Source: Lingula anatina (Eukaryota; Animalia; Brachiopoda). Taken from it: DNA of 64,000 bases. Below are positions 1 to 24,386 of this stretch, piece by piece. The first letter of the stretch is position 1. Each line of letters starts with the position of its first letter. The stretch covers positions 18,118,567 through 18,182,566 of the forward strand of contig CM120649.1 in NCBI GenBank assembly GCA_051362555.1. Direction: 5' to 3'. Both the position numbers and the translations under genes were made by a program. The notes beneath the pieces were generated by a model, which did no database searches, was not told the DNA's origin, and saw nothing but the letters and a program-made list of their open reading frames with translations.

Positions 1-1687
1 CACAATCTTCTTGTTTTAACTCTAAAATAGTACCGACTTCTTCAAGATTAAAGGCAGCGGGGAATATGTGCAGTGAAAGAAACACCTTCCTTGCTTCCTC
101 GTTCAGTGTTTCATAAGAAATATCAAAGCAAGTTGTGATTTCATTTGGCATGCTGGGAATGGAAAGAGTTGGTAATGTATTTTGAGTGTGTATCTTTTCT
201 AATACTGTTTTTGTTGTTTTGGTGTTGAGTAACGCAGCTAGCAGTTTCATTGCAAGGGGGTTATGGCCACATTTTTGTGCCATTTCATCTAAATCCGCCG
301 ACTCACAGTCCGTGGGATTCGTGGATTTTCTTTCCCAAAGGACTTGACGTGATGCGGTTTTATCAAGTGGAGGAATGTCTAACAGAACTATGTCATGTGT
401 TGTGAAATCAAACCTTTCACGACTGGTGCATAACAAAGTGATATGATTGGTTGAATCCATTACATCCCTCACAAATTCACAAAACTCGTGTCTGTTTAAA
501 CTGAGAACAGAGTCGTTATTGTCGAGAATGAGGAGTGTGTCTGAACTTAAACGAGACAAAGTATGTGTGAAAATATTTTGATAATCAGAATATAAATCTT
601 TCAAATCACGTGTTGGATGATAATGCTGGACAAGTGATAACTTGACAGAATTAAGATCTGTTACTTGTCTCATATCAACGTACAGCACATTAAGCATGTT
701 TTGCCCGACCTTAACCGCTATACTAGTCTTACCGATACCCCCCATGCCGGTCAGGAGAATGAGTGGAGCTTTTTCACTGATATGTTGCTGTATCGTGGAA
801 ATGATGTCATCACGTCCCTTAAGATCCGTGTTTCTTCTTGGTAACTTCGTGAGGAGCAGCTGGCAAGGGGTTTCTGAAAAGAATTAAGTTTAATGAGACG
901 AGCTTAATAAAAAATTGAAGTCATCATTCAATCAGCTGTACTTCTATAACTCCATGATTCTATCTTCATTAATTAGTTCCAGACGAATGGATGACTGTAT
1001 GTGAAAGTTTATAAGCTCGTTGTGTGACAGCGCACATGTTTATGTGTGTTTATTTAGATGCATGTTTATTCATTTAAGGTTTTATAGATGTGAATTATTA
1101 TTCAAGTGTTGCGAAAATCTACCTGAGGCATCCAATGGCTGAATCACTAACTTGTCGTAGTCATCACTAGAGTACAATGTAGACAGAGACAGAAGGGTAG
1201 TTTTCAGACCATTGAACTGCTTCTGGAAATCTGCGTCTGAGAGACCCTCTGTTGCATGAGCGTTCTTATTGCGGTACCTCTTCACCCTAGCGATGTTGGC
1301 TTCAGTCGATTTGTCCGTTGCTCGAGGATTGACCCAACTTGCATTAGAATTCAGGTTTGTGATATTTCTTAATAAAACTACGGTCAGGGTAATATCCAAG
1401 CTCTGCAGTGTCACAGGAGGTGCAGGGCTCTCAGGAGGGTAGAGAATGTTCTTTTGACTAGGGTTCAAAATGTTCCTTCTTTTAAGTTTGAGTAAGGAAT
1501 GTTTCACTGTTTGGTCATTTAGGACACCAGATATGTTCCCATTACTTGATGGTCCAAAGAGACCCGGGTATTTTAACTGTAACTGGTTACTGAGAACATC
1601 TCGAAGTACTAGTATCCCACGATCCAGTAGCAGTTGCATGCGGAAATGGTTTTCTTTCTCCTTACGAGGAATCTCTTCACTGGCCAT
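1..1687 (-). CDS. STAND NTPase with N-terminal DZIP3-like HEPN domain and NB-ARC/AP-ATPase-type domain (5' part; coding exons 1687-1123 and 873-<1)
   Basis: First coding exon (acceptor TTTTTGCAG before 1696, ATG at 1687, GT donor after 1123, phase 1) encodes LDITLTVVLLRN...ANIARVKRYRNKNAH, the HEPN_DZIP3 pattern with R-x4-H at 1273-1256. The next exon (acceptor TTTTCAG before 873) stays open to the window edge: LPRRNTDLKGRDD, Walker A LTGMGGIGKTS (~755-723), Walker B LLILDN (~535-518), CTSR (~430-419), CGHNPLAM (GxP motif, ~273-250), FDISYETL...VFLSLHIFP. Confidence 0.88.
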
Positions 1688-3684
1688 TTCTGAGATCTGC
1701 AAAAAGGCCATAGAGACGTTTGAGGGTTAATCAATACATTTTAAATTTATCGTTATTATATTTAAGGTAAGATAAATACTTTATGAAACAACTACTGACA
1801 GTATTGCAAAGACGTATTTTTAAAAATAAAACTAAGTATTACATCTATGTTGTACTTTTAAATAACTTTTACTTCATACCTGTATGCATGGTGCACGGTA
1901 TTATTATGAAGTGTTTAAGGTTGAAAGTGTGTGCTTTGGGATATAAATGTGTATGTTCTTCTGGTATGAATTGGTTTTATACTCTTTAATAATAAAAATG
2001 GGTATTATAGCATAGTTGATTGTACCTGTACGCATGATGTGATTTCCACACATTTGTTCCAAATCACATATACCACTTCTGTCTTTTCATACTTATGGAA
2101 CAAACAACATTTACTGGCTACAGGAGGGTAATTTATCCTACCCAAAGGGAAAAAATAATGCAAGATATACAGCACAGGGATAAAAAATGAGTAGAAAGCA
2201 CCGAAAAAATATTTGATAATAAAGATTGCGTATCCAGTCATAAGGGCGCGAGCCAAAGACAATTAACATAACCCTATACTACGATAAACATTGTCCCACT
2301 ATTTACTAAGTTAGTAATAACTTTTTAAATTGGTGCATTCTGCTATTACAAGCCACATATATTTTTCCTACTATACGGCATTGCATGGTACAGTACTAGT
2401 ACTAATCTGTGACATTGTTCCTTTTAAAACTAATAGACCTTAAATTTGATCCCGTGCATCCATAAATTGGCTTTGTTTAATCAGAAATGTATAGGCTTAT
2501 GCCGGTAATTTTTGTTCATGTTCGTGCATGTTTCTCAGATGTAAACATTTCAGAAATAAGTCACAAATTAAACTGATGATTTTGCATGTATAGGACTAAT
2601 TTCCTTCTTTGCTTTGACATTTCGTCTAAAGCACAGAGTACGGATGTTTGGAAAAAAAAACCTTATCATTTTTATCATTATTATTTGGCATGCTTCATAC
2701 ACATGTATGTGTGGCAGATTGAAGCATTGCTGAATGCACCAGTTGTATGTCCAGCTTTTTTTATTTGTCTGTTAAAATGTACAGACGGAATCATTACCAA
2801 ATGCGTGAGAGGAACGTAGAGTTCAGTTTTGATTGCTTCAGTAGAACTTTGCCGTGGGTGTGCCATGCTTATGGTAGTATTGGTTTTCACTCGCTGATGT
2901 CTTAAATAACATGTGTTGTATTTTACAGAAAAAATAACTACTGTACTTTCGTCAATCCACAAAATGGTGCCATTTGTTTTTCTATAAATGATAGCCATGC
3001 ACTGTGACATGTATACTATTTTATAGCAGTTTTCACGTCTAAGATTATGGACTGGGGTCGCAATCTGTGACTTTTGTGGTATTTTGATATTAATTAAACA
3101 GATTAAACACCGTCCCTGCGAGAGTTAATTTTTGCTGCCTTAACCCCGTGCTGTAAATAGCGCGTCGTTACACAAACAGGAGAATACCAATACCTGAATT
3201 ACTGACCTATAGTACAATGAACGCTTACAATGCACATAGCAACATGGCGCAATGTTTATTAAGTTAAAGTGAAAGAAGGACGTACGGTACTATTTCCCCA
3301 AAGAATAAGTTTATAAATCTAGGAGAAAAAACAACCCACACCATAGCACATCTATAAGCGTATGGAAACCAAGTGTTATGATGATAGCTAGACTGTGTCA
3401 TGAACATATACTTTGGTAGCATTATTGAACTTACCGTGAGTTGACTTTAATCGAAATACACTTGTGTCGAGCCGCTTGCTTCTTCCTTTTAACGGCGTAT
3501 TACTGGATAAGAGCTCAACTTTGTCAGTGTACTTCTACAGTATAATTATATGATAATGTTAAGACGATGATATACACCGTCTTTGGCATAAATGAACATC
3601 TAGCCCTGGCAACCAGTCAGTGTACGTGTAAACCCTGCCTCTGATTCAGACCCAGTGTGTGGAGGGGACCACAAAATATAAAGG

Positions 3685-3723
3685 GTCACATGACTCATCT
3701 GGGTTTTTTTGAAGGGAAACTTT
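3685..3723. promoter_or_regulatory. Possible promoter motif cluster of the HEPN-NTPase gene (E-box overlapping AP-1 site, partial kappaB-like site)
   Basis: GTCACATGAC (3685-3694) overlaps TGACTCA (3691-3697); GGGAAACTTT at 3714-3723. Lies ~250 bp upstream of a candidate minus-strand donor (CG|GTAAGT at 3435) that could end a non-coding first exon. Motif matches only. Confidence 0.25.
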
Positions 3724-8435: not shown

Positions 8436-8583
8436 TGTTGCATATTATAATGTAATTAACATATCTCCCATAATGCATTGTTCTTTCTCTACCAGTTAGC
8501 CAGCATGGCTGGATGTGTTATGTAATAAATGAGTTATTAAAAAATGTTAACTTGAGTTACATAACAACAGAAAAACTACGACA
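8436..8583 (+). repeat. 5' LTR
   Basis: Identical by eye to 12922-13069. Confidence 0.95.
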
Positions 8584-8695
8584 TGGTGTCAGAATCGGGA
8601 TCTACATTGGATGTAGCATAATTTGGAGATTGGATGACCCACAAACTACAAGATAAAAACGGATTTAGAATCACTAAAAAAAAAAGGAAAAAAAA

Positions 8696-11600
8696 ATGGA
8701 GCACATGTATGGGATACAGCCGCCTCACATGGACTGGGAATCCATGGACTTACCGCGTACGTTCAAACTTTTCAAGGAAAAGTGTGAATTGATATTCCAA
8801 GGACCTTTAGATGCTGTGTCAGAGGAAAGACAAGTGAAATTTCTTCTCCTTTGGATCGGAGAAAAAGGCCGCGAAATTGTGAAAACTTTTAACATTGATG
8901 ATCTAGATGTGTTGACCTCGTATTGGCAAAAATTGGAAGAATACACAAAGCCCAAGAGTAACTTTCGAATTCAGAGATTTAAACTTAGAGCATGCAGACA
9001 AGAAGCAGGTGAGAGCATTGATTCTTTTGTCAGACGAATCAGACTCGTGGCAAATGAATGCAAATATACAGATGTTGATCAACACATAATTGACACACTG
9101 ATTTTTGGCACTAACTCGGAGCGAATTCAGGCGAAATTATTACAAAGAGAGGACGATTTGACTCTAGATCAGGCTCTTGTCATTGCACGAACAGAGGAAG
9201 CAACTAAGAAACAGATTGAGGATCTTCACAGTACATCGGCAAAGGAAATTCATGCACTACGGCCAAGTGGAAACAGTCAAAGAGGGAGACCGCGTTACAG
9301 ACAGCCACAACCTCGCACTCCTCGCCAGCAAACTCAATCAAAGGTACCAAACAAGCAACGCTCACGACAGCCACTGCAAGAATGTGGTAAGTGTGGAACT
9401 GAACATGTTTTTCAACAGTGCCCAGCTAAAGGTACAATTTGTCTCAGATGTGGCAAGCCAGATCACTGGAAAAGGGTATGTAGAACAAAAACAGTAACTG
9501 CATCGACCCATAGTAAAACTGTGCATTCAGTAGCAAATGAAAGTGACATTAGCAGTGTAAACCTTGACTCTATATATGTAGATAGTATTCAGTCAAAACA
9601 GTCCTCAGTTAAGCCATTTGCTGACATTGAAGTTAAAGTTGGGAACTCTACTTCAACATTACGTTGCAAAATAGACACTGGTGCTGAAGGAAATGTAATA
9701 CCACTGTCTTCTTTCAAAAAACTTGCAATTAAGCAACCACTAAAGCCTACGAATGACACGATTACTGCATATGGTGGCAGTAAGTTACCAGTATGTGGAA
9801 TAGCAACATTGACATTCACAAATGACAAGGTCATGGTGACCTCAGACAGCTATATTGTGGACTGTGAAGGACCAGTTATACTAGGAATGGAAACCAGTCA
9901 GAAACTGGGACTTGTTACTCTGAACATAAATACAGTGACAAGACAGTCCATACTATCAGAGTATAAGGATATCTTTGAAGGTATCGGGAAATTGGATGGG
10001 GAATATCACATAAATATTGACCCCACTGTTTCTCCTGTTGTTCACCCACCACGGCGTGTACCTATTGCATTGCAGCCAGCACTCAAGGAGGAGTTGGACT
10101 CTCTCGTTGAGCAAGGGATCCTGTCACCAGTCACACAACCAACGAAATGGGTAAACTCGTGTGTATGTGTTACCAAACCCAATGGAAAAATACGTCTCTG
10201 CCTGGATCCAAAAGACTTAAATACGGCAATTAGACGTCCACACCACTACACACCAACACTGGATGACATCCTACCTCAACTGAGTGGCGCACGTTATTTC
10301 AGTATACTTGACCTTCGGAGTGGGTATTGGAATATCACGTTAGATGAAGAAAGTTCTCTTCTGACTACCTTCAATACGCCCTTCGGAAGATTTAGATACA
10401 ACAGACTACCCTTTGGCCTCTCGCTATCTCAAGACGTCTTCCAGGCCAAGATTGAAGAAGTATTCAAAGACATTCCAGGGTGTACTGGAATCGCCGACGA
10501 CCTCATCATAGCAGGTTGGCAGAAAGACGGATCTGACCACGATGCGACTCTGCGCGTTGTATTAGATACAGCCAGAAGAAAGGGGATACGCTTTAATGAG
10601 GACAAGATGATTCTTAGAAAGGAGGAAATTCCATTCTTCGGTCACATTATAGGAAAAGACGGGCTAAAACCAGACCCAGCAAAGGTAGAAGCCATTAATG
10701 TAATGAATGAGCCGAGAAATGTATCCGAGCTACAAACATTCCTTGGGATGACAAATTATCTAAGCAGATACATTCCCCATATGTCTCAACTTACAGCCAG
10801 TCTCAGAGACCTGTGCAAGAAGGATAGTGTTTTTCAGTGGAATGCTGAACACAGTATTGCATTCAACGAGATAAAAAGAGAAATAGCAAACGCAACCAAC
10901 CTACAATTCTACGACAGTAGCAAGTCACTTACACTCCAAGTTGACGCTTCATCTTATGGATTAGGAGCTGCCTTAATCCAGGATAAAGGCCCAGTTGCAT
11001 ATGCTAGCAAAGCACTCACAGAAACAGAGTCACGTTACTCAAACATTGAACGCGAGATGTTAGCAGTAGTGTTTGGTCTTGAAAAGTTTCACCATTATGT
11101 CTATGGTAGACATGTTAAAGTAGAGACTGACCATAAGCCTCTAGAAGCCATTTTCAAGAAGCACCTACACAACGCACCACCGCGTCTGACTCGCATGTTG
11201 CTGAGAACGCAGTGTTATGACACAGAGATTGTGTATGTCCCAGGCAAAAATATAGGACTAGCTGATGCCCTCTCTCGCATGAAACCTTGTGATGGTGACG
11301 ACATCAAAGGACTTGACATTACAGTACATGAATTACACTCGTACATGAACGCAAGTCCAACACGCATTGAGCAAATTCGCGAGGAAACTAGTAAAGAACC
11401 ACAGCTAGCAGCTCTTCGTGAAATGATTTCTGTAGGATGGCCAGCTACACGCAGCGAGTGTCCAGAAATTCTTCACCCATACTGGAACTACCGTGATGAG
11501 TTAGGCATCGCAGATGGAATCATAATAAAGGGGAATAGGATGATTATTCCTACAGTACTTCGCCCTGACCTACTTAAACAGCTACATTATGCCCACCAGG

Positions 11601-12622
11601 GAGTGGAGAAATGTAAGCTACGTGCAAAATCGTCTGTATTCTGGCCTGGCATGAATAATGATATTGAGCACACAGTCGGACTGTGTCCACCTTGCCAGAA
11701 ACACCAAGCTGCCAACAGTAAGGAACCCTTATTGCCAGCAGATGTACCTCCCCGCGCATGGCACACATTAGCAGCAGATTTGTTCTATTGGAGACAAACT
11801 GACTACTTATTAGTTGCTGACCAGTACAGCAAATATCCTTTAGTGAGGAAACTTCCAAGTACATCATCAGGCAGTGTAATTGCACACTTAAAGAGCATAT
11901 TCGAGGAACATGGCATCCCTGAGATTCTTAAAACTGACAATGGACCTCAGTTTTCATCAGAAGGATTCAAAAACTTCGCAAACACTTGGGGATTTACGCA
12001 CATTACATCCTCACCTATGTATCCGCAGTCAAATGGATTCATAGAACGAATGGTACAGACTGTTAAAAGTCTATTTCAGAAAGCATGGGAATCAAATTCA
12101 GATCCCCACCTATCCATGTTATGTCTTCGCACAACACCCATTGATCACAACCTACCAGCGCCTTGTGAGTTATTGAATAACCGGAAGTATAAAACAAATA
12201 TTCCCGCTGGACAGTCACAGTTGAACTCCGACTACAATGTAGCATTACAGAAGAGACAGAACGCAAGTAAAACTTACTATGATCAGCATGCCAAACCGCT
12301 TGAACCTTTACATGAAGGAGAATTTGTTCGCATGTATGACACTCAGAATAATACATGGCAACCTGCCAAAGTTAAAACTGTATCAGACAAACCCAGATCT
12401 TATTATGTGGAATCCAATGGTGGAAATTACCGACGCAACCGGAAACACATTCATAAGACAAAAGAACATTTTGATTTCAGAAACAATGAGATTGAGGAAA
12501 CTGATGAACCTCTTGTTGACATTACAAACACAGAGACTGTTACAAAATGTGAAACACCTCAATCTCAACCTTTACGCAGATCAAGCAGGAACATTAAACC
12601 TCCAGAGAGACTGAACTTATGA
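8696..12622 (+). CDS. Gag-Pol polyprotein, 1308 aa (gag, zinc knuckles, aspartic protease, RT, RNase H, integrase)
   Basis: CGKCGTEH..C and CLRCGKPDHWKRVC knuckles, protease KIDTGA, RT LPFG...IADD, RNase H VDASSYGLGA...ETDHKPL, integrase H-H-C-C plus ADLF / TDNGPQF / NGFIER. Order PR-RT-RH-IN; no stops. Confidence 0.97.
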   Translation: MEHMYGIQPPHMDWESMDLPRTFKLFKEKCELIFQGPLDAVSEERQVKFLLLWIGEKGREIVKTFNIDDLDVLTSYWQKLEEYTKPKSNFRIQRFKLRACRQEAGESIDSFVRRIRLVANECKYTDVDQHIIDTLIFGTNSERIQAKLLQREDDLTLDQALVIARTEEATKKQIEDLHSTSAKEIHALRPSGNSQRGRPRYRQPQPRTPRQQTQSKVPNKQRSRQPLQECGKCGTEHVFQQCPAKGTICLRCGKPDHWKRVCRTKTVTASTHSKTVHSVANESDISSVNLDSIYVDSIQSKQSSVKPFADIEVKVGNSTSTLRCKIDTGAEGNVIPLSSFKKLAIKQPLKPTNDTITAYGGSKLPVCGIATLTFTNDKVMVTSDSYIVDCEGPVILGMETSQKLGLVTLNINTVTRQSILSEYKDIFEGIGKLDGEYHINIDPTVSPVVHPPRRVPIALQPALKEELDSLVEQGILSPVTQPTKWVNSCVCVTKPNGKIRLCLDPKDLNTAIRRPHHYTPTLDDILPQLSGARYFSILDLRSGYWNITLDEESSLLTTFNTPFGRFRYNRLPFGLSLSQDVFQAKIEEVFKDIPGCTGIADDLIIAGWQKDGSDHDATLRVVLDTARRKGIRFNEDKMILRKEEIPFFGHIIGKDGLKPDPAKVEAINVMNEPRNVSELQTFLGMTNYLSRYIPHMSQLTASLRDLCKKDSVFQWNAEHSIAFNEIKREIANATNLQFYDSSKSLTLQVDASSYGLGAALIQDKGPVAYASKALTETESRYSNIEREMLAVVFGLEKFHHYVYGRHVKVETDHKPLEAIFKKHLHNAPPRLTRMLLRTQCYDTEIVYVPGKNIGLADALSRMKPCDGDDIKGLDITVHELHSYMNASPTRIEQIREETSKEPQLAALREMISVGWPATRSECPEILHPYWNYRDELGIADGIIIKGNRMIIPTVLRPDLLKQLHYAHQGVEKCKLRAKSSVFWPGMNNDIEHTVGLCPPCQKHQAANSKEPLLPADVPPRAWHTLAADLFYWRQTDYLLVADQYSKYPLVRKLPSTSSGSVIAHLKSIFEEHGIPEILKTDNGPQFSSEGFKNFANTWGFTHITSSPMYPQSNGFIERMVQTVKSLFQKAWESNSDPHLSMLCLRTTPIDHNLPAPCELLNNRKYKTNIPAGQSQLNSDYNVALQKRQNASKTYYDQHAKPLEPLHEGEFVRMYDTQNNTWQPAKVKTVSDKPRSYYVESNGGNYRRNRKHIHKTKEHFDFRNNEIEETDEPLVDITNTETVTKCETPQSQPLRRSSRNIKPPERLNL

Positions 12623-12921
12623 ATAAATTCAGTAATAGTGACTGTAACAAGTCAGTTGTGAAAGTGTCAAAAAAAAAAATTGACTGTAATTTGAATAAGC
12701 TAAATCATAATTGTTTCATTTATGAACTCTGGACTTGAGATTCTGTTGACTTTTGTGTTAAAACAAAAAAAAAAAAACATTTACATGTGCCTATGAACTG
12801 TTAACATTGAAATGTCTTGGAGACAAAGACAACACGGACAGTGAACTGATTATGTTTATTAGCAACTTTAAAAAAAAAAAAAAAGAATTCCAGGATTTAT
12901 TTTTATTAAAAAAAAGGGAGA

Positions 12922-13069
12922 TGTTGCATATTATAATGTAATTAACATATCTCCCATAATGCATTGTTCTTTCTCTACCAGTTAGCCAGCATGGCTGGAT
13001 GTGTTATGTAATAAATGAGTTATTAAAAAATGTTAACTTGAGTTACATAACAACAGAAAAACTACGACA
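12922..13069 (+). repeat. 3' LTR
   Basis: Identical by eye to 8436-8583; followed by TSD ATTAC and an (ATT)n tract. Confidence 0.95.
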
Positions 13070-23015: not shown

Positions 23016-24386
23016 CTACACTGCCCCCAAGCAATTGTCCTCATAATAGTCATATCCAATGTCTGCCTGCAAGTCACCGGACTGGGCAGTACTGGGCAAA
23101 AGTTCACAGACACAGTGGTCATTTCCAGCACAGAGAACGTTTATGGCCTCACACTTCCAGTTTTGCAAACAGGAGATGCTGCATTCGGTGCGGCTACCGA
23201 CATTCAGCGTGGCTATGGGCACGAGGGTTGCGCGCGCACCTGCTGCTACCTGACGAAACCTGGTTGAACTTTTAATACCTACAAAAAAATTAACTACGGG
23301 ACTTGAAAAAAAAATTAAGACGTGCTAGCACCTGACTGATCGGTTAGTTCAAAGTTGAATTAATCATCAAATCTGTAATAATTATAGATATTTTTATTCA
23401 TGCACTTCAAAACTAATAGTAATATATACATGTACGCAATGTGGGAATATCGTAGCTTAAGGCCCACCTGTAATAGCGATTTTGAGAAACTATAAACTTA
23501 CCATGAAATTCCACTTCACAAAGCTGCAATGGATCATCGTCACTACCAACTTTAATAATCAAGACATATCGTCCTCTCAGTGGTGACCCACAGGACAGAG
23601 ACGTGTTCCCCACAGGTGCCACCCCAGGGTAACTGGCGCAGAGTTTGTACTGGGTGAATGATGAATTATCCACGAAAGAGGTTCCAACTCTCACTTCGAA
23701 ATTATTCAGACGGTCAGCTGGAAAAATTATCAGAATATTCAATTTGATATATTTTGCAAAAAAAAAACGTACGTGGCACAGTCCATAAAGTATCACTCTG
23801 CAAGAAAATTATCACACATTGCTTTGTATATTTTGCACATGTATAATCTGAAATGGATCATAGCTAACTGAAAATAAAAGTAGCAAATGGTAAAATATGA
23901 GATTACACTTATATCATACTTTTCTTGGATGTACGGAGTAGGTAGACACGTGGATGAATAAATTGTCACAATTATTTGAAGAAATTAATACTTGTATATA
24001 GTTACACAATAACCTCTTCGTTGCAGATATATCATTTTATCAGATCGAACTTAACATTTCAATACTTACAGCAATAAAAACGACAGCGACATATCTTTAA
24101 TAAATTAGGACTAAATACAAAATATATAAAGAACCAAAAATCTTACAACAGCAGTCGCCACGGTTTGTTATAATTACACCAGCCACCCTCTCCGTGCTTA
24201 GTAAGTCTACCAGCCACCATTGACCCTGACCCCATTGTGTATGGATACAACTCCCATGTATGTGGACGTCGTCATAGTTACCATCGACAGCAAGGCCGGC
24301 AGGGTACTGATGTAGGTGAATAGAACTTTGGTAGGCGGGTTTTCCTTTCGCCAAATTCTTCGTGCAACCTCTGCATGGTGTCCCAA
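23016..24386 (-). pseudogene. F-type lectin + PAN/apple gene, copy 3 (exons 24386-24147, 23717-23502, 23278-23016); leader exon deleted
   Basis: Exons 2-4 are open with normal lengths (240/216/263). At ~24650 a ~110-bp stretch that holds the ATG, signal-peptide codons and donor in other copies (e.g. 31150-31262) is missing. Confidence 0.75.

What the first reader, a model, noticed from the sequence alone, without database searches (positions are those of the whole stretch)
1..1687. Animal STAND receptor with an apparently catalytic HEPN RNase as N-terminal effector
Seen: the ORF track shows only a 209-aa piece, but splicing 1123 to 873 joins a HEPN_DZIP3-like domain (RNKNAH = R-x4-H) in frame to an NB-ARC-type NTPase with Walker A, Walker B and GxP motifs. 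Established: HEPN RNases (RNase L, Cas13, toxin HEPNs) form their active site by dimerisation, and STAND NTPases oligomerise on ligand binding, as in NLRs, APAF-1 and prokaryotic Avs defence proteins. HEPN-STAND fusions have been noted in invertebrate genomes, but I know of no biochemical characterisation. Inference: a ligand-triggered RNase (suicide or antiviral NLR-like protein) whose sensor domain lies left of the window.
Basis: partly seen in the sequence, partly recalled or inferred. Interest (0 to 1): 0.72.

Follow-up and report, generated by a model that had tools for sequence, protein, structure and literature searches.

The report
Lamp-shell immune receptor with RNase head
A spliced gene, most likely from a Lingula lamp shell, joins a predicted RNA-cutting domain to an immune-receptor-type ATPase switch and likely destroys RNA when a repeat tail (seen in its sister genes) detects an intruder; the same design is already catalogued in corals, so it is a new member of a known but untested kind.

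Summary
Observation confirmed. On the minus strand a GT-AG intron (1122-874) joins a HEPN_DZIP3 exon (Pfam E 5e-33; R139-N140-x3-H144) in frame to an NB-ARC exon (E 1e-8; fold matches plant NRC/ZAR1 and Apaf-1). The 479 codons are open and align without gaps, at 74% identity, to a Lingula anatina HEPN-NB-ARC-TPR protein. RNA reads span this joint (12 reads, 3 of 4 runs, lenient 80% setting, so paralogues may contribute) and reveal a non-coding first exon at about 3435-3565; an in-frame stop makes HEPN the true N-terminus. One correction: the 'GxP' motif reads H-N-P. Eleven Lingula paralogues carry C-terminal TPR hits; this gene's own tail lies off the window. The reading as a ligand-gated RNase is plausible but inferred, and is already in print: HEPN-NB-ARC-TPR genes are listed for corals and HEPN-NACHT with intact motifs for pearl oyster; I found no activity test. 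This scan noted the design before on other DNA. New details: the Lingula HEPN heads group with other Lingula HEPNs, not with coral ones (AU p 5e-5), and sit about 25 residues closer to the ATPase. Verdict: new member of a known kind; interest 0.32.

The parts
3435..3565 (-). first exon, non-coding (5' end approximate)
   Evidence: RNA depth at 3426-3699 and joint 1696/3435 in 7 reads of 3 of 4 runs; GT-AG intron and an in-frame stop 8 codons before ATG 1687 in the spliced form
1697..3434 (-). intron 1 (1738 nt, GT-AG)
1123..1696 (-). exon 2: ATG at 1687 and the whole HEPN_DZIP3 domain (residues 1-188)
   Evidence: Pfam PF18738 E 4.8e-33; model pLDDT 95.6, all helical
1256..1273 (-). predicted RNase motif R139-N140-x3-H144
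   Evidence: sequence; R 152, N 149, H 149 of 158 aligned HEPN segments; lies at the end of helix 128-143 and the following loop
874..1122 (-). intron 2 (249 nt, GT-AG, phase 1), exactly at the HEPN / NB-ARC boundary
   Evidence: joint 873/1123 in 12 reads of 3 of 4 runs
1..873 (-). exon 3 (open at the window edge): NB-ARC-type STAND ATPase
   Evidence: Pfam PF00931 E 1e-8; all 16 Foldseek matches at E<=0.001 are plant NLR or Apaf-1 entries
725..748 (-). Walker A (GMGGIGKT)
   Evidence: sequence; G, G, G, K, T invariant in 18 aligned rows
512..532 (-). Walker B, D-N-x-D type
   Evidence: sequence; D117 and N118 of the exon product invariant in 18 rows
257..265 (-). GxP-equivalent motif, here H-N-P
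   Evidence: proline invariant in 18 rows

Best explanation
This is the spliced 5' part of a gene, likely from a Lingula lamp shell, encoding a HEPN domain fused to an NB-ARC ATPase and, as inferred from its paralogues, a TPR tail; it is predicted to act as a one-chain sensor and executioner whose RNase is switched on by assembly. Shown: the exons, the open frame, both domains, the intact R-N-x3-H motif, transcription and splicing of the family, and TPR tails in paralogues. Inferred from NB-ARC proteins: the ADP-bound monomer is held shut by the TPR array; a pathogen or damage ligand binds the TPR groove, ATP replaces ADP and the ATPase forms a ring. Inferred from HEPN nucleases: the ring brings HEPN heads together in pairs, two R-x4-H motifs form one metal-independent active site, and viral or host RNA (perhaps tRNA or rRNA) is cut, stopping translation or killing the cell. 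The ligand and the RNA target are unknown.
For: Domains; HEPN model's best structural match is Csm6 (Z 7.0, rmsd 3.6, 111 aligned), with AbiF at Z 6.4 over 163 residues (modest scores). Motif kept in 11 of 12 Lingula HEPN-NB-ARC proteins, as R-x4-6-H in 145 of 158 HEPN segments and as R-x4-H in 107 of 120 coral-type HEPN-NB-ARC-TPR proteins; an acidic residue (D98) is kept in 155 of 158. TPR hits in 11 of 11 full paralogues, one under the curated cut-off. In 43 paralogue TPR units the most variable positions include 7, 10, 14, 17 and 18, a helical-face spacing, as expected of a diversifying binding surface (compare fungal NB-ARC-TPR proteins, PMC4986451 passages). HEPN domains form composite sites by dimerising and RAZR is activated by assembly on phage proteins (PMC13017515 and 10.1101/760058 passages).
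Against: No activity, ligand or oligomer was tested. The gene's own winged-helix end and TPR tail are outside the window and no genome is held. HEPN fold scores are under Z 8, the range where unrelated helical bundles also score, and Foldseek gave no match at E<=0.001. Only 2 of 1585 laid reads are 99% or more alike to this copy and 45 are 95-99% alike, so most expression evidence is for paralogues; three other runs gave 0-3 reads. One paralogue (P0005) has lost the histidine. The conservation counts come from hits selected by likeness to the query.
Confidence: 0.6

Rival explanations
1. The HEPN head is an RNA-binding or pairing module rather than an executioner: the activated receptor would recruit other HEPN-bearing proteins (HEPN-caspase, HEPN-CARD, HEPN-GTPase, solo HEPN) and signal through them.
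For: The same Lingula HEPN clade heads proteins with CARD, CARD-NACHT, IIGP GTPase and a caspase fragment, and occurs in short proteins with no other Pfam domain. Non-catalytic HEPN domains exist (PMC3710099 passages).
Against: R, N, H and the upstream D are among the most conserved columns of the family, which a mere adaptor would not need; the non-catalytic families described in PMC3710099 lack the motif.
Confidence: 0.18
2. This copy is a decaying or truncated member of a birth-and-death family; the family may be functional but this gene would not make a full receptor.
For: The 3' half is unseen. Few reads are near-identical to this copy. Paralogue models show lesions: P0005 lacks the histidine and ends after a partial repeat of the ATPase start; P0010 lacks most of the P-loop.
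Against: 479 open codons, two canonical introns, all motifs intact, no gap against the closest paralogue; reads join the non-coding first exon to the HEPN exon.
Confidence: 0.14
3. It is a gated RNase, but its trigger is internal (retroelement products, misfolded or damaged host proteins, allorecognition) and its target specific RNAs, not antiviral suicide.
For: Coral authors list antitransposon and unfolded-protein roles beside antiviral ones (10.1101/2022.05.17.492263 passage); fungal STAND proteins act in non-self recognition (PMC4986451).
Against: No data here point to any internal trigger; family expansion and variable TPR surfaces fit a pathogen arms race at least as well.
Confidence: 0.08

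Closest known systems
Coral DZIP3-like HEPN - NB-ARC - TPR proteins (PMC10236652 additional file 17, e.g. Acropora digitifera orthogroup OG0000193)
   Same: Same three-part layout (9 of the 28 gene rows shown). A stony-coral family found with P0155 (717 hits; the 7 named rows among the best 120 are all stony corals) is hit by the Lingula NB-ARC profile in 120 of 120 and keeps R-x4-H in 107 of 120.
   Different: About 25-30% identity to the Lingula family; Lingula HEPNs do not group with the two coral-type HEPNs tested; motif-to-Walker A distance 92-93 against a median of 117. I did not verify that the P0155 family is OG0000193.
Pearl-oyster and cnidarian DZIP3/hRUL138-like HEPN - NACHT proteins (PMC9646362; PMC8260672)
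   Same: N-terminal HEPN_DZIP3 on a STAND ATPase, lineage expansion, R-N-x3-H motif read as an RNase site (194 of 202 in the oyster paper).
   Different: NACHT rather than NB-ARC (NACHT under cut-off here).
Plant NB-ARC NLRs (NRC2/3/4, ZAR1) and Apaf-1
   Same: ATPase fold (all 16 Foldseek matches at E<=0.001) and N-effector / ATPase / repeat layout.
   Different: Effector is a predicted RNase, not a pore-forming coiled coil or CARD; repeats are TPR in paralogues, not LRR or WD40.
Bacterial Avs (antiviral STAND) receptors and the HEPN RNase RAZR (PMC13581612; PMC13017515)
   Same: Functional logic: a protein trigger drives assembly, which switches on an enzyme; in RAZR the enzyme is a HEPN RNase.
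   Different: RAZR has no STAND ATPase; no sequence relationship to Avs families was tested; this gene is an intron-containing animal gene.

Membership tests
HEPN_DZIP3 (PF18738) | profile score above the curated cut-off | tested here: met
   114.4 bits against 27, profile positions 2-138 of 144
HEPN RNases | R-x4-6-H motif with a polar residue after R, at the end of a helix and the following loop | tested here: met
   R139-N140-x3-H144; helix 128-143 in a pLDDT 95.6 model; criteria from PMC3710099 passages
HEPN RNases | HEPN helical fold | tested here: inconclusive
   best match Csm6 Z 7.0, AbiF 6.4, other HEPN entries 5.0-5.3, mixed with unrelated bundles; none at Z 8 or more; no Foldseek match at E<=0.001
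HEPN RNases | dimer-dependent, metal-independent RNA cleavage | not testable with these tools
   needs biochemistry
NB-ARC (AP-ATPase) STAND | profile score above cut-off and NB-ARC fold | tested here: met
   35.2 bits against 23.5; 16 of 16 Foldseek matches at E<=0.001 are plant NLRs or Apaf-1 (model pLDDT 73)
NB-ARC (AP-ATPase) STAND | Walker A, Walker B, sensor-1 Arg | tested here: met
   present and invariant in 18 rows; Walker B is of the D-N-x-D type
NB-ARC (AP-ATPase) STAND | GxP motif in helical domain 1 | tested here: inconclusive
   H-N-P-L-A here; proline invariant, glycine in 3 of 10 paralogues and both coral-type rows
NB-ARC (AP-ATPase) STAND | winged helix with MHD-type histidine and C-terminal repeats | not testable with these tools
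   outside the window; 10 of 10 aligned paralogues have a hydrophobic-H-P motif and TPR hits
NLR in the strict sense (with LRR) | C-terminal LRR | tested here: not met
   tested on paralogues only: TPR, no LRR listed; so 'NLR-like STAND', not NLR
HEPN-NACHT receptors of bivalves and cnidarians | NACHT ATPase | tested here: not met
   NACHT 10.8 bits against 26.7
Coral HEPN-NB-ARC-TPR family | same domain order and related ATPase | tested here: met
   (median E 1e-28 with the Lingula NB-ARC profile)
Coral HEPN-NB-ARC-TPR family | HEPN head of common descent with the coral heads | tested here: not met
Bacterial Avs / AVAST | membership of a prokaryotic Avs clade | not tested
   analogy only

The most novel reading that the evidence does not exclude
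Animals have an 'RNase resistosome': a single-chain receptor whose ATPase ring directly assembles HEPN active sites, and brachiopods built their version separately from corals by splicing a one-exon HEPN cassette, shared with their CARD-NACHT, GTPase and caspase genes, onto an NB-ARC-TPR chassis with a linker about 25 residues shorter.
Probability: 0.3. Interest if true: 0.7.

Novelty: new member of a known kind. Interest (0 to 1): 0.32.

Why it matters
HEPN-headed STAND proteins are among the commonest NLR-like genes of corals and bivalves, yet my searches found no test of their activity. If they are gated RNases, invertebrates have an RNase L-like defence wired straight to intracellular receptors, a eukaryotic parallel of bacterial Avs and RAZR systems. 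This compact, expressed Lingula family is a convenient test case and suggests the design was assembled or re-headed more than once. The gene itself adds one more member; it does not open the question.

Tried and rejected
Whole genome: none held, so the 3' part of the gene could not be read. The look-up of sequencing runs: no RNA holder listed; nine same-species raw-read runs offered; I laid 7 of the 9. First lay at 90% likeness: 3, 0, 56 and 1 reads, no joint listed. Homodimer prediction of the HEPN domain: no answer, score 0.00 in two runs, alignment not used; no evidence either way. Sequence search of the PDB with the HEPN exon: no hit under E 0.5; with the ATPase exon only weak hits, best E 0.0045. 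Foldseek of the HEPN model: nothing at E<=0.001. Rfam: 0 matches in the window. Phage tblastn with the ATPase: one weak unannotated match, E 6e-4, not pursued. No second HEPN or NB-ARC piece in the window by tblastn or family profiles. Rejected: an upstream coding exon (in-frame stop 8 codons before the ATG); NACHT identity; a literal GxP. Literature searches that found no biochemical test of a DZIP3-like HEPN on an animal STAND protein: (listings and abstract starts only; subscription papers are not covered; 5 of 17 supplement files of PMC10236652 were not searched, bioRxiv supplements are closed).

Full report
Observation. The minus strand holds two long open frames, 1082-1726 and 2-883. A donor follows base 1123 and an acceptor precedes base 873; the 249-nt intron is GT-AG and the joined frame runs 479 codons from ATG 1687 to the window edge without a stop. 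Pfam gives HEPN_DZIP3 for the first exon (E 4.8e-33, 114.4 bits, cut-off 27) and NB-ARC for the second (E 1e-8, 35.2 bits, cut-off 23.5); NACHT is under its cut-off. RNKNAH is residues 139-144.

Splicing and expression. Seven of nine offered RNA runs were laid. At 90% likeness four runs gave 3, 0, 56 and 1 reads and no joint. At 80% likeness four runs gave 1585 reads confined almost wholly to the exons; the joint 873/1123 appears in 12 reads of 3 of 4 runs, and a second joint 1696/3435 in 7 reads of 3 of 4 runs. In the stranded run all first mates lie on the plus strand, which fits a minus-strand RNA. Only 2 reads are 99% or more alike and 45 are 95-99% alike, so most reads come from paralogues or other alleles: the intron position is shown for the family, and expression of this very copy is likely but thinly supported. 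The upstream intron is GT-AG, 1738 nt, and the spliced leader has an in-frame stop 8 codons before the ATG, so HEPN is the N-terminus.

Relatives. All 8 hits of the HEPN exon among longer proteins and the 12 best of 16 hits of the ATPase exon are Lingula anatina proteins; none is identical, so the source is inferred to be Lingula or a close relative. The spliced protein matches LOC106178291 at 74% over 479 residues with no gap. Eleven full paralogues have HEPN, the ATPase and TPR hits (one TPR hit is under cut-off). The R-N-x3-H motif is kept in 11 of 12 family members counting this one. In 43 TPR units picked from paralogues by a motif pattern, which fixes some positions by construction, the most variable free positions include 7, 10, 14, 17 and 18 (2.6-3.1 bits; 36 and 39 are also high), a helical-face spacing. 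A wide HMMER search found 542 relatives of the HEPN at E<=0.001. Among 158 aligned segments (the best 150 plus family members) R, N and H are kept in 152, 149 and 149, D98 in 155. Pfam scans of 47 of these show HEPN heading NACHT, NPHP3-type, NB-ARC, Roc-COR, IIGP, ankyrin, NHL, CARD and caspase proteins.

Structure. The HEPN model (pLDDT 95.6) is all helical with R139 at the end of helix 128-143 and H144 in the next loop, the position described for HEPN RNases (PMC3710099, passages). Structural matches are modest: Csm6 first at Z 7.0 (rmsd 3.6, 111 aligned), AbiF 6.4 (163 aligned), among unrelated bundles; Foldseek gave none at E<=0.001. The ATPase model (pLDDT 73) matches only plant NLRs and Apaf-1 in its 16 hits at E<=0.001.

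Mechanism. Shown: gene structure, domains, motifs, family expression, TPR tails in paralogues. Inferred from NB-ARC proteins (general knowledge, and PMC13017515 passage on antiviral STAND tetramers): ligand binding to the repeats releases inhibition and the ATPase oligomerises. Inferred from HEPN nucleases (10.1101/760058 and PMC13017515 passages): two R-x4-H motifs must be juxtaposed, so oligomerisation would complete the active site, as assembly on phage rings does for RAZR. I put a gated RNase at 0.6; an adaptor role at 0.18; a decaying copy at 0.14; an internal trigger at 0.08.

Comparison with what is known. PMC3710099 (passages) defines the DZIP3/hRUL138 HEPN family as mostly motif-conserving and fused to TPR, NACHT, CARD, DEATH and LRR in animals. 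PMC9646362 (passages) reports over 50 HEPN-NACHT genes in pearl oyster and the motif in 194 of 202 HEPN proteins, read as RNase activity. PMC8260672 (passage) finds HEPN the commonest non-LRR NACHT partner in nine cnidarians. The coral genome paper notes many N-terminal DZIP3-like HEPN domains and TPR tails on NB-ARC proteins (preprint passages); its additional file 17 lists the exact HEPN / NB-ARC / TPR layout in 9 of the 28 gene rows shown to me. Bacterial NACHT proteins are also noted with HEPN effectors (10.1101/2022.07.19.500537 passage). Eight searches found no activity test of the animal proteins. Earlier notes of this scan describe the same design elsewhere in this genome and in other genomes; they are not independent evidence, but one pointed me to the coral supplement, which I checked.

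What is a little new. Two unnamed HEPN-NB-ARC proteins (P0155, P0161) share the ATPase type (E about 1e-36); P0155 belongs to a large family whose named members are stony corals, and the Lingula ATPase profile hits 120 of 120 of them. Yet in a tree of 59 of the 158 HEPN segments (all Lingula rows, the two coral-type rows, 11 chosen and 25 random others; short segments left out) the Lingula HEPNs form one clade with support 100/99, including those heading CARD-NACHT, IIGP and caspase proteins. An AU test on a 24-row subset, run after seeing that tree, rejects grouping Lingula NB-ARC heads with the coral-type heads (p 4.6e-5); the Lingula stem is long and the model simple, so this is suggestive. 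The intron falls exactly at the HEPN end, and the motif-to-Walker A distance is 92-93 residues in 11 of 11 Lingula proteins against a median of 117 in 109 coral-type ones. Separate assembly or re-heading by exon shuffling is the simplest reading; an old fusion with lineage-wide homogenisation is not excluded.

Verdict. Real, correctly read gene; interpretation plausible, untested and already anticipated in print. New member of a known kind, interest 0.32; novel case probability 0.3, interest 0.7 if true.

Noticed in passing
window 8436-13069 (+): LTR retrotransposon with one 1314-codon open frame (8678-12622; RT, RNase H, integrase by Pfam) and two 148-bp terminal repeats that are 100% identical: a very recent insertion about 4.9 kb upstream of the gene's first exon.
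   Followed up: partly
window 23413-23808 (-): 131-codon open stretch that looks by eye like an exon of a fucolectin-type (F5/8-like) domain; no Pfam hit at E<=0.001.
   Followed up: partly
window 3589-3698 (-): Short upstream ATG frames (1-32 codons) lie just beyond the apparent 5' end of the first exon; whether they are transcribed is unclear.
   Followed up: no
proteins P0006, P0020: Two Lingula models end just after the HEPN exon boundary and fall inside the NB-ARC-type HEPN clade; they may be split gene models or true HEPN-only or re-headed derivatives. P0006 has about 350 extra N-terminal residues.
   Followed up: no
proteins P0022, P0024, P0025, P0027: The sister Lingula HEPN clade heads CARD, CARD-NACHT, interferon-inducible GTPase and caspase-fragment proteins: HEPN behaves as a swappable cassette in this animal.
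   Followed up: partly
proteins P0028, P0030, P0119: Relatives with two or three tandem HEPN_DZIP3 domains in one chain, which could form an active site within one molecule.
   Followed up: no
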